Position numbers and translations under genes: made by a program
Shown here: piece by piece, positions 56,435 to 56,528 of the stretch
Numbering within the stretch: position 1 is the stretch's first letter
Layout of the letters: each line of letters opens with the position of its first letter
The notes under the pieces: generated by a model
The model's input: the letters and a program-made list of their open reading frames with translations, nothing else
The model's database searches: none
Told to the model about the DNA's origin: nothing
DNA from: a virus
Taxonomy: Duplodnaviria; Caudoviricetes
DNA: 64,000 nt
Strand: one strand, 5' to 3'
Virus record (IMG/VR): IMGVR_UViG_3300024272_002379

Positions 56435-56528
56435 CGGAAGGTAGCCTAGTGGCTAGGCTTGTTGCGAAAAAACGGGTGAAAGCAACTGGAAACGCCGTTT
56501 GACGTGAGTTCGAATCTCACTCTTCCGT
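56435..56528 (+). ncRNA. tRNA-like RNA lacking a canonical anticodon loop
   Basis: acceptor CGGAAGG/TCTTCCG, D-arm GCCT/AGGC, T-arm GTGAG-TTCGAAT-CTCAC, 16-nt loop at anticodon position. Confidence 0.65.

What the first reader, a model, noticed from the sequence alone, without database searches (positions are those of the whole stretch)
56435..56528. tRNA mimic whose anticodon loop is replaced by a possible pseudoknot
Seen: intact acceptor, D and T arms, but GTTGC/GCAAC closes a 16-nt loop (GAAAAAACGGGTGAAA) whose AAACGG can pair with CCGTTT in the variable region. It should not decode normally. Inference: decoy for anticodon nucleases, T-box or synthetase ligand, or Y-RNA-like mimic.
Basis: partly seen in the sequence, partly recalled or inferred. 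Interest (0 to 1): 0.7.

Follow-up and report, generated by a model that had tools for sequence, protein, structure and literature searches.

The report
Phage tRNA look-alike with masked anticodon
Among the ordinary tRNA genes of a 213-kb gut phage sits a conserved tRNA-shaped RNA, probably descended from a proline tRNA, whose anticodon lies in an oversized loop and can pair with a matching "codon" inside the same molecule, so it probably cannot decode; what it does is unknown.

Summary
Window 56435-56528 folds into a cloverleaf with sound acceptor, D and T arms. A 5-bp stem closes a 16-nt loop, and a 6-bp loop-to-variable-region pairing is possible. ARAGORN and the Rfam tRNA model do not accept it.

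It is not a lone decaying relic. I found three homologues, two in related jumbo phages and one in a human-gut contig. All helices are kept: six pairs show compensatory changes, and W's D stem adds two more. The adjacent spacer has diverged to random level. The two pseudoknot strands are the most conserved unpaired parts (1 of 12 columns vary, against 15 of 21; p = 0.0008).

tRNA finders give the four orthologues three different "anticodons", so reading the family as a decoder or an intron-bearing tRNA is incoherent. C1-G72, the anticodon stem and the loop core YGGGU point to a tRNA-Pro ancestor. On that reading the pseudoknot pairs anticodon YGG with an internal CCG.

Best reading, at about 0.5: a selected, non-decoding tRNA-shaped RNA, processed like a tRNA. 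The role is not shown; candidates are a tRNA mimic or decoy, or a processing signal for the conserved structured RNA just upstream. Expression is untested.

Earlier notes of this scan describe similar non-decoding tRNA-shaped phage RNAs on other DNA. I treated them as leads, not as evidence.

The parts
56435..56528 (+). whole tRNA-shaped RNA gene (94 nt, no encoded CCA)
   Evidence: Sequence. Own covariance model R1 scores it 105 bits. Homologues at 95-119 bits in G001, G004 and M1.
56435..56441 (+). acceptor stem 5' strand (C1...G7), pairs with 56521-56527; discriminator U at 56528
   Evidence: 3 of 7 pairs show compensatory changes among the 4 homologues. C1-G72 occurs in these arrays otherwise only in tRNA-Pro.
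56444..56458 (+). D arm (stem GCCU/AGGC, extendable to 6 bp; loop holds GG)
   Evidence: Relatives have GCUC/GAGC, so two pairs are swapped with pairing kept on the window's lineage.
56461..56486 (+). anticodon-arm equivalent: 5-bp stem GUUGC/GCAAC closing a 16-nt loop (56466-56481)
   Evidence: 100% paired in 4 sequences. The first pair is G-C here and C-G in the others. The Rfam tRNA model aligns this stem as the anticodon stem in G001.
56470..56475 (+). pseudoknot 5' strand AAACGG; CGG (56473-56475) plus G56476 equals the tRNA-Pro anticodon plus G37
   Evidence: Columns 39-45 of alignment A5 are invariant but for one C/U. Same YGGGU core as the arrays' tRNA-Pro loops.
56487..56503 (+). 17-nt variable region holding the pseudoknot 3' strand CCGUUU (56495-56500)
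   Evidence: CCGUU is invariant in 4 sequences. Duplex with the loop is -8.5 kcal/mol, and the variable region alone is unstructured.
56504..56520 (+). T arm GUGAG-UUCGAAU-CUCAC
   Evidence: 2 of 5 pairs covary.
56170..56434 (+). context: conserved structured RNA of unknown family that abuts the 5' end of the tRNA-like
   Evidence: 72-82% pairwise identity to the G001 and M1 copies and 84% mean column identity in the three-way alignment that also includes the tRNA-like. Frame-breaking indels and 7-10 covarying pairs. No Rfam hit. In G004 the same RNA is followed at the same junction by canonical tRNA-Pro.
53495..53523 (+). context: 12/12 sigma-70-type promoter match upstream of the tmRNA/tRNA array; no terminator-like site between it and the element other than sites inside tRNAs
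   Evidence: consensus scan only.

Best explanation
The element is a gene for a non-decoding, tRNA-shaped RNA kept by selection for its fold. It most likely arose from a phage tRNA-Pro gene by enlargement of the anticodon loop (7 to 15-16 nt) and of the variable region (5 to 15-17 nt).

Shown:
- The four helices and the two complementary segments are conserved across four diverged phages.

Inferred:
- It is transcribed with the tmRNA/tRNA/ROOL array.
- It is cut out by RNase P and RNase Z and receives CCA from the host like its neighbours.
- In the mature RNA the old anticodon (CGG, followed by G37) together with the two or three A's before it pairs with CCGUU(U) in the variable insert. This gives an H-type pseudoknot on top of the 5-bp anticodon stem, which hides the anticodon from the ribosome and probably from ProRS.
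- The RNA therefore acts through its tRNA body (acceptor/T/D 'elbow').

Among possible uses, I rank first a tRNA mimic that occupies a tRNA-binding protein, such as a host tRNA-directed defence or toxin enzyme. I rank second a tRNA-shaped RNase P signal that sets the 3' end of the conserved structured RNA immediately upstream.
For: Conservation and selection on the fold:
- Homologues lie in two related 208-210 kb phages and one human-gut contig.
- In alignment A5, 26 of 26 pairs of the cloverleaf plus pseudoknot are 100% paired, with 6 pairs changed on both sides.
- W's D stem has two further swapped pairs. None of W's unique stem changes is uncompensated.
- Identity to homologues is 70-79%, within the 60-92% seen for true tRNAs of the same arrays.
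- The spacer just downstream is 53% identical, against 51% for shuffles.

Pseudoknot:
- The two strands vary in 1 of 12 columns, against 15 of 21 other loop columns (p = 0.0008).
- Duplex energy is -7.6 to -8.5 kcal/mol in all four.

Not a decoder:
- There is no 7-nt loop and no U33 in W.
- The alternative ARAGORN-type anticodon stem (CUUG/YGGG) is G.U-rich, 2-9 kcal/mol weaker, and broken in W.
- ARAGORN gives Phe, Leu, Leu and Arg for four orthologues, with 'introns' at different places. The supposed intron core ACGGGU is the best-conserved part.

tRNA-Pro origin:
- C1-G72 is found in all four, and otherwise only in 5 of 6 tRNA-Pro among 49 array tRNAs.
- The anticodon stem CUUGN/NCAAG and the loop core YGGGU match the arrays' tRNA-Pro.
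- Pro is the best-matching isotype (67.4% mean).
- In G004 a canonical tRNA-Pro sits at exactly the junction that the tRNA-like occupies in W, G001 and M1.
Against: - There are only four sequences.
- The pseudoknot has no compensatory double change, only one C-G to U.G. Its conservation could reflect something else, such as protein contacts or the alternative stem.
- No expression data exist.
- The element is absent from relative G003.
- One metagenome contig shows a close variant in which the element is reduced to a hairpin, so it is dispensable in some lineages.
- Three of the four phages would gain an anticodon not otherwise present in their array (UAG or UCG) if the weak alternative fold were used. 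That pattern is the one expected of a real decoder.
- The margin of tRNA-Pro over other isotypes in plain identity is small.
- No role has been tested.
Confidence: 0.5

Rival explanations
1. Decaying pseudo-tRNA. The family was a working tRNA. The window's copy lost its anticodon loop after a canonical tRNA-Leu(UAG) made it redundant, and it is now drifting without function.
For: - W alone fails the Rfam tRNA score, while G001 and G004 reach 45 bits.
- W alone has replaced UUAG by AAAA at the loop start, and it is the most divergent member.
- W and M1 have a canonical tRNA-Leu(UAG); G001 and G004 do not.
- A deletion variant exists in one metagenome, and G003 lacks the element.
Against: - All five of W's unique changes in helices are compensated: two D-stem pairs and one anticodon-stem pair.
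- Its divergence is no greater than that of true tRNAs.
- The neighbouring spacer is already randomised.
Confidence: 0.2
2. Real decoder. The family members are unusual tRNAs that decode either through the alternative anticodon stem CUUG/YGGG with the 7-nt loop CUUAGAA or CUUCGAA (Leu-UAG or Arg-UCG), or after removal of a 9-nt mini-intron. The window's copy is an inactivated or re-assigned one.
For: - ARAGORN calls G004 Leu(tag) and M1 Arg(tcg) without an intron, and G001 Leu(tag) with a 9-nt intron at 37/38.
- These anticodons are otherwise missing from the respective arrays.
- M1 pairs C35 with A20 in the D loop, which are ArgRS identity marks (own knowledge).
- Lak megaphage tRNAs with unexplained 'introns' are a precedent (PMC6784885).
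Against: - The alternative stem has two U.G pairs and a U.U mismatch, is 2-9 kcal/mol worse than the 5-bp WC stem in every member, and has a G.G in W.
- A one-base indel at the stem/loop border separates G001 from G004 and M1.
- The 'anticodon' varies while the 'intron' core is invariant, the reverse of real intron-bearing tRNAs.
- No RtcB or Rnl2-type ligase is encoded in these phages.
- The C1-G72 body fits neither Leu nor Arg.
Confidence: 0.12
3. Pure processing signal. The element is kept only as a tRNA-shaped RNase P/RNase Z substrate that releases the neighbouring structured RNA (56170-56434) from the polycistronic transcript, as tRNAs punctuate mitochondrial transcripts and mascRNA marks the 3' end of MALAT1.
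For: - The upstream RNA ends 0-5 nt before C1 at a conserved junction in W, G001 and M1.
- In G004 the same junction is followed by a true tRNA-Pro.
- In the deletion variant a tRNA-Met follows within about 30 nt.
- No terminator-like site separates the genes.
Against: - In G004 the tRNA-like is not next to that RNA.
- RNase P needs only the acceptor/T domain, so the conserved loop core, variable insert and anticodon stem are unexplained.
Confidence: 0.13
4. Selenocysteine-type or other recoding tRNA. This was suggested by the only Rfam hit and by a possible 8-bp acceptor and 6-bp D stem in W.
For: - tRNA-Sec model at 24.6 bits, E 0.011.
- A56434-U56528 would add an eighth acceptor pair, and W's D stem can reach 6 bp.
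Against: - The score is far below the cut-off of 47.
- There is no UCA anticodon.
- The 6-bp D stem is absent from all three homologues, and the eighth pair from G001 and G004.
Confidence: 0.02

Closest known systems
Canonical phage-encoded tRNAs (Rfam RF00005), in particular tRNA-Pro(UGG) of the same arrays (window 54889-54964)
   Same: 7-bp acceptor with C1-G72. D arm with GG. T arm with UUCGAAU. Anticodon stem CUUGN/NCAAG. UGGGU/YGGGU in the loop. No encoded CCA. Position inside a tRNA array.
   Different: Anticodon loop of 15-16 nt instead of 7, with no U33 before the YGG. Variable region of 15-17 nt instead of 5. Discriminator U rather than A, except in G001. W is below the Rfam cut-off.
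tRNAs with 'enigmatic introns' of Lak megaphages (Devoto et al. 2019, PMC6784885, read)
   Same: Phage tRNA genes that are too long for bacterial tRNA finders because of extra sequence in the anticodon region. Function and processing unknown.
   Different: Those were assigned an isotype with a conserved exon anticodon. Here the 'anticodon' differs among orthologues, and the inserted core is the conserved part and pairs with the variable region. No sequence relation was tested.
Phage T4 stable RNAs C and D (species 1 and 2) in the T4 tRNA cluster (own knowledge, not checked here)
   Same: Small stable non-tRNA RNAs encoded and processed within a phage tRNA cluster, with role unknown.
   Different: No sequence or structural comparison was made. 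T4 RNAs are 119-139 nt.
YrlA / bacterial Y RNAs, tRNA mimics bound by Rsr (Chen et al. 2014; own knowledge)
   Same: A tRNA-like acceptor/T/D module without a decoding anticodon arm.
   Different: No Rfam Y-RNA/YrlA hit. No Ro-binding helix. A full cloverleaf is retained here.
Frameshift-suppressor tRNA-Pro derivatives with enlarged anticodon loops (sufA6, SufB2; own knowledge)
   Same: A tRNA-Pro body with extra anticodon-loop nucleotides.
   Different: Those have 8-nt loops and decode. Here there are 15-16 nt and a pseudoknot partner.
Viral tRNA-like structures with pseudoknots (e.g. TYMV TLS; own knowledge) and mascRNA-type processing signals
   Same: tRNA mimicry used for something other than decoding. 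A pseudoknot is part of the fold. RNase P recognition.
   Different: The TLS pseudoknot builds the acceptor arm, not the anticodon end. Those are 3' ends of long RNAs of eukaryotic viruses or genes.

Membership tests
tRNA (Rfam RF00005) | Cloverleaf with acceptor, D and T arms and a T-loop UUCRANY | tested here: met
tRNA (Rfam RF00005) | 7-nt anticodon loop with U33 and purine 37 closed by a 5-bp stem | tested here: not met
   The loop is 16 nt in W and 15-16 nt in the homologues. The alternative 7-8-nt loop needs a weak stem that is broken in W.
tRNA (Rfam RF00005) | Score at or above the curated gathering cut-off (29 bits) | tested here: not met
   W is not listed at gathering and scores below the 24.6-bit tRNA-Sec hit. 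Homologues G001 and G004 do reach 45 bits.
Bacterial-type tRNA-Pro | C1-G72 first pair | tested here: met
   Present in all four members. Otherwise found only in 5 of 6 tRNA-Pro among 49 array tRNAs.
Bacterial-type tRNA-Pro | A73 discriminator | tested here: not met
   U in W, G004 and M1; A only in G001.
Bacterial-type tRNA-Pro | Anticodon NGG followed by G37 in a 7-nt loop | tested here: inconclusive
   YGG-G is present and invariant, but in the middle of a 15-16-nt loop.
Intron-containing tRNA | Conserved exon anticodon, variable intron at one fixed position | tested here: not met
   ARAGORN -i gives Phe, Leu, Leu and Arg, with an intron at 31/32, at 38/39, or none. The 'intron' core is invariant.
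Intron-containing tRNA | Splicing machinery available (endonuclease plus RtcB or Rnl-type ligase) | tested here: inconclusive
   No RtcB or PF09414 ligase in G000, G001, G003 or G004. The host is unknown.
tRNA-Sec (RF01852) | Gathering score 47 bits, UCA anticodon, 8/5 acceptor/T and 6-bp D stem | tested here: not met
   24.6 bits and no UCA. The 6-bp D stem occurs in W only.
tmRNA tRNA-like domain (RF00023) | Acceptor/T domain joined to an mRNA-like reading frame | tested here: not met
   Only a 12.9-bit local T-arm match. A true tmRNA lies at 53640-54015.
YrlA / Y RNA | Match to the family model; Ro-binding helix | tested here: not met
   No such hit at E up to 10 in 56300-56700.
Decoy or inhibitor of tRNA-targeting defence | Binds or is cut by a host anticodon nuclease or tRNA-modifying toxin and protects the phage | not testable with these tools
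   Host and partner are unknown.

The most novel reading that the evidence does not exclude
A 'self-decoded' tRNA mimic. This would be a tRNA-Pro derivative that carries its own CCG codon in an enlarged variable arm and locks its anticodon into an intramolecular codon-anticodon-like pseudoknot. It would be made by jumbo phages as a dedicated ligand: an inhibitor or decoy of a host tRNA-directed immune enzyme, or a partner or cargo of the neighbouring structured RNAs such as the ROOL cage. It would not be a translation adaptor.
Probability: 0.15. Interest if true: 0.8.

Novelty: new variant of a known kind. Interest (0 to 1): 0.5.

Why it matters
Phage tRNA arrays are usually read as codon-usage helpers or as spare parts against tRNA-cleaving defences. 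A conserved array member that keeps every feature used by tRNA-processing enzymes but hides its anticodon would be evidence for a second, non-decoding use of the tRNA scaffold by phages. The built-in codon pairing would be a simple, testable way of switching a tRNA out of translation.

The case also shows that automatic annotation (Leu, Arg, 'undetermined') of such genes in relatives is unreliable. It further uncovers an unnamed ~250-nt structured RNA next to the element.

Tried and rejected
Searches for more homologues that found none:
- GenBank phages by blastn with W or M1 plus flanks: no match.
- Exact loop pattern in IMG/VR: none.
- Three degenerate patterns in IMG/VR: only G001 and G004; all other hits were ordinary tRNAs by model R1.
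- Species-representative genomes: none.
- 36 IMG/VR loci around homologues of the neighbouring C39-like peptidase: none.
- The single-protein locus search with the peptidase found nothing.

Tools and data that were unavailable:
- Sequencing runs: no RNA holder listed, so nothing can be said about expression.

Results that gave no information:
- Four DNA runs from other studies carry the element without a single difference, so they add no covariation.
- Literature searches for expanded anticodon loops in phage tRNAs, decoys of anticodon nucleases, and introns in phage-encoded tRNAs found nothing matching this element.

Ideas considered and dropped:
- An extra 3-bp helix inside the loop (UUA/UAA) is seen only in G001 and G004.
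- A variable-arm hairpin AAC/GUU is predicted unstable.
- An obligate unit with the upstream RNA is contradicted by G004.
- A copy of W's D arm elsewhere in the window (gene conversion): none found.
- tRNA-Sec: see membership test.
- A phage-encoded CCA-adding enzyme, RtcB or Rnl2-type ligase: none found.

Full report
Setting. The window is the minus strand of bases 105701-169700 of a 213-kb IMG/VR virus record. It has about 34% G+C. It encodes a head module (major head, portal, terminase), and the portal is 51% identical to that of Bacillus phage 0305phi8-36. Bases 53.6-58.9 kb form an RNA gene array on the plus strand. It holds a tmRNA, ten ARAGORN tRNAs (Pro, Leu-tag, Thr, Ser, Ser, Met, Tyr, Ile, Asn, Met) and a ROOL RNA at 57117-57810. 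Two perfect sigma-70-type promoter matches (53495, 57837) and one strong terminator (58966) frame the array (consensus scan only). ROOL RNAs are known to lie near phage tRNA islands (bioRxiv 10.1101/2024.12.08.627333).

Observation. It has a 7-bp acceptor stem, a D arm, a T arm with UUCGAAU, and the 5-bp stem GUUGC/GCAAC around a 16-nt loop. AAACGG in that loop is complementary to CCGUUU in a 17-nt variable region. ARAGORN in bacterial mode does not call it. The Rfam tRNA model does not reach its cut-off, and the best family is tRNA-Sec at 24.6 bits against 47. Plain folding is unremarkable (z = -1.6). The 6-bp complementarity arises in 0.9% of shuffles.

Relatives. The portal protein led to 16 IMG/VR loci. 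BLAST and a covariance model built here (R1) found the element in two complete relatives: G001 (208 kb, portal 87% identical) and G004 (210 kb, 64%). It was not found in G003 or in the fragments. A pattern scan of metagenomes added one member, M1, on an 11-kb human-gut contig with the same array order. All other searches were negative (see Tried and rejected), so the family has four known members. Four further animal-gut DNA runs carry the window's version unchanged. One contig shows a variant in which the element and the following spacer are replaced by a short hairpin made of the acceptor strands.

Selection on the fold. In the model-based alignment A5, all 26 pairs of acceptor, D, anticodon-type stem, T stem and the proposed pseudoknot are paired in every sequence. 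Six pairs carry changes on both sides: acceptor 3, T stem 2, anticodon-type stem 1. The window's D stem (GCCU/AGGC against GCUC/GAGC) adds two swapped pairs that the gap in the alignment hides. Every helix change unique to the window's lineage is compensated. Identity between members (70-85%) lies within the range of the true tRNAs of the same arrays (60-92%). The 180-nt spacer after the element is no more alike between W and G001 than shuffled sequence (53% against 51%).

Which central fold. Three readings compete.
(A) The 5-bp Watson-Crick stem with a 15-16-nt loop. This is what the Rfam tRNA model chooses for G001.
(B) An ARAGORN-type stem CUUG/YGGG with a 7- or 8-nt loop CUUAGAA or CUUCGAA.
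(C) Reading A plus a pairing of loop AAYGG with CCGUU of the variable region.
Reading B is 2-9 kcal/mol weaker in every member, contains two U.G pairs, and has a G.G in W. The base change that breaks it in W is the one compensated in A. With A formed, the loop and the variable region have no structure of their own, but they pair with each other at -7.6 to -8.5 kcal/mol in all four. The two segments are nearly invariant: 1 of 12 columns vary, and that one is a C/U that keeps the pair. By contrast, 15 of 21 other loop and variable columns vary (Fisher p = 0.0008). There is no double compensatory change in the pseudoknot, so it is supported by conservation and energy, not by covariation.

Not a coherent decoder. 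Relatives begin the loop with a canonical-looking heptamer. ARAGORN therefore calls G004 Leu(tag), M1 Arg(tcg) and G001 '???(ttag)'. With intron mode it calls G001 Leu(tag) with a 9-nt intron and W Phe(gaa) with an 11-nt insert at a non-canonical place. That is three isotypes for four orthologues. A one-base indel sits at the stem/loop border, and the 'intron' core (ACGGGU) is the most conserved part. This is the opposite of what an intron-bearing tRNA shows. No RtcB, Rnl2-type ligase or CCA-adding enzyme is encoded by G000, G001, G003 or G004. One fact remains in favour of decoding. G001 and G004 have no other tRNA-Leu and M1 has no other tRNA-Arg, whereas W, which lost the heptamer, has a canonical tRNA-Leu(tag). 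I keep this rival at 0.12.

Origin.
- All four members start with C1-G72. Among 49 tRNAs of these arrays, that pair occurs only in tRNA-Pro (5 of 6).
- The anticodon-type stem CUUGC/GCAAG matches CUUGU/ACAAG or CUUGA/UCAAG of the arrays' tRNA-Pro.
- The invariant loop core YGGGU equals positions 34-38 of tRNA-Pro (UGG, G37, U38).
- The variable region ends in GGUC in G001 and G004 (GAC in W and M1), echoing the GUC at the end of the arrays' tRNA-Pro variable loops (AGGUC; AAGUC in G004).
- tRNA-Pro is the best isotype by gapped identity, though by a small margin (67.4%, against 60-65.5% for most other isotypes and 56% for Leu-tag).
- In G004 the conserved upstream RNA is followed, at the same ...ACAGAAUUAA|CG junction, by a canonical tRNA-Pro. 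In W, G001 and M1 it is followed by the tRNA-like.
I therefore read the element as a tRNA-Pro paralogue with about 4 nt added on each side of the anticodon and about 12 nt added to the variable loop. On this reading the pseudoknot pairs the anticodon YGG, plus the two A's before it, with CCG plus UU. That is a proline codon built into the molecule. This last step is inference.

Mechanism. What is shown is a conserved tRNA-shaped fold without a usable anticodon loop. The rest is inferred. The element is co-transcribed with the array. It is released by RNase P and RNase Z and gains CCA from the host, since no array tRNA encodes CCA. The anticodon is sequestered by the pseudoknot, so the RNA stays out of translation. 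For its use I give:
- 0.5 that it is a selected non-decoding RNA at all. Within that, the leading idea is a tRNA mimic for a tRNA-binding protein.
- 0.13 for a pure processing signal for the upstream RNA.
- 0.2 for a functionless relic.

Comparison and novelty. The element is not a member of RF00005 by score or loop. It is not tRNA-Sec, not a tmRNA domain, and not a Y RNA (membership table). It resembles in kind the unexplained 'intron'-bearing tRNAs of Lak megaphages (PMC6784885) and the stable RNAs C and D of the T4 tRNA cluster (own knowledge). Earlier notes of this scan describe non-decoding tRNA-shaped RNAs in other phages. These are unchecked AI notes and served only as leads; one of them gave the Lak reference. 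The specific design here appears undescribed in the material I could search: a tRNA-Pro body, an enlarged loop, and an internal codon-like partner. I therefore class it as a new variant of a known kind.

Limits. There are four sequences, no RNA data and no known host.

Noticed in passing
window 56170-56434 (+); also L037:15764-16028, L110:5805-6047 (-), L039:13248-13492 (-), L229: A ~245-265-nt conserved non-coding element fills the gap between tRNA-Ser(gct) and the next tRNA-shaped gene in four phages. It has frame-breaking indels, a long-range helix UAUGUAAU/GUUACAUAG, conserved 3' hairpins with ACGAAGA and ACGNNA loops, and 7-10 covarying pairs. It has no Rfam match. It is probably an undescribed phage structured RNA released by tRNA processing.
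   Followed up: partly
L040:17863-17997 (related phage G003): A 135-nt match to the Rfam tRNA model (45 bits) with about 65 extra nt between the D arm and the anticodon arm, and a duplicated AUUGU/ACAAU stem. ARAGORN does not call it. The same locus stretch holds a group I intron at L040:4065-4401.
   Followed up: partly
L045:6656-6753 (unrelated IMG/VR contig): A 98-nt tRNA-shaped gene whose GAGGA/UCCUC stem closes a 30-nt loop that begins UUGUAGC. This is another phage tRNA with an oversized anticodon loop.
   Followed up: no
window 56436-56708, seen in run X7: One metagenome contig joins the end of the upstream RNA to tRNA-Met through the hairpin ACGGAAG-CGUUCCUCG-CUUCCGU. That is a natural deletion of the tRNA-like and its spacer, at a depth similar to the full form in the same sample.
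   Followed up: no
window 53495-53523 and 57837-57865; 58966-58985: Two 12/12 matches to the sigma-70 consensus with 17-nt spacers, before the tmRNA and before tRNA-Tyr, and a strong intrinsic terminator after the last tRNA. Together they suggest two transcription units for the RNA array.
   Followed up: no
window 54043-54828 (+): A C39-like peptidase gene (PF13529) sits inside the RNA array between the tmRNA and tRNA-Pro. It has more than 260 homologues, many on contigs of about 200 kb.
   Followed up: partly
window 56470-56476 versus 56397-56404: The loop core AAACGGG of the tRNA-like is also complementary to CCCGUUU in the conserved 3' part of the upstream RNA (GGUCAUUCCCGUUUCUA). A trans pairing is possible but untested.
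   Followed up: no
L039:11654-11800 (-), G004: The 147-nt spacer before G004's tRNA-like carries an inverted repeat CCAGCUAAC...GGUUAGCUGG that could enclose a small structured RNA.
   Followed up: no
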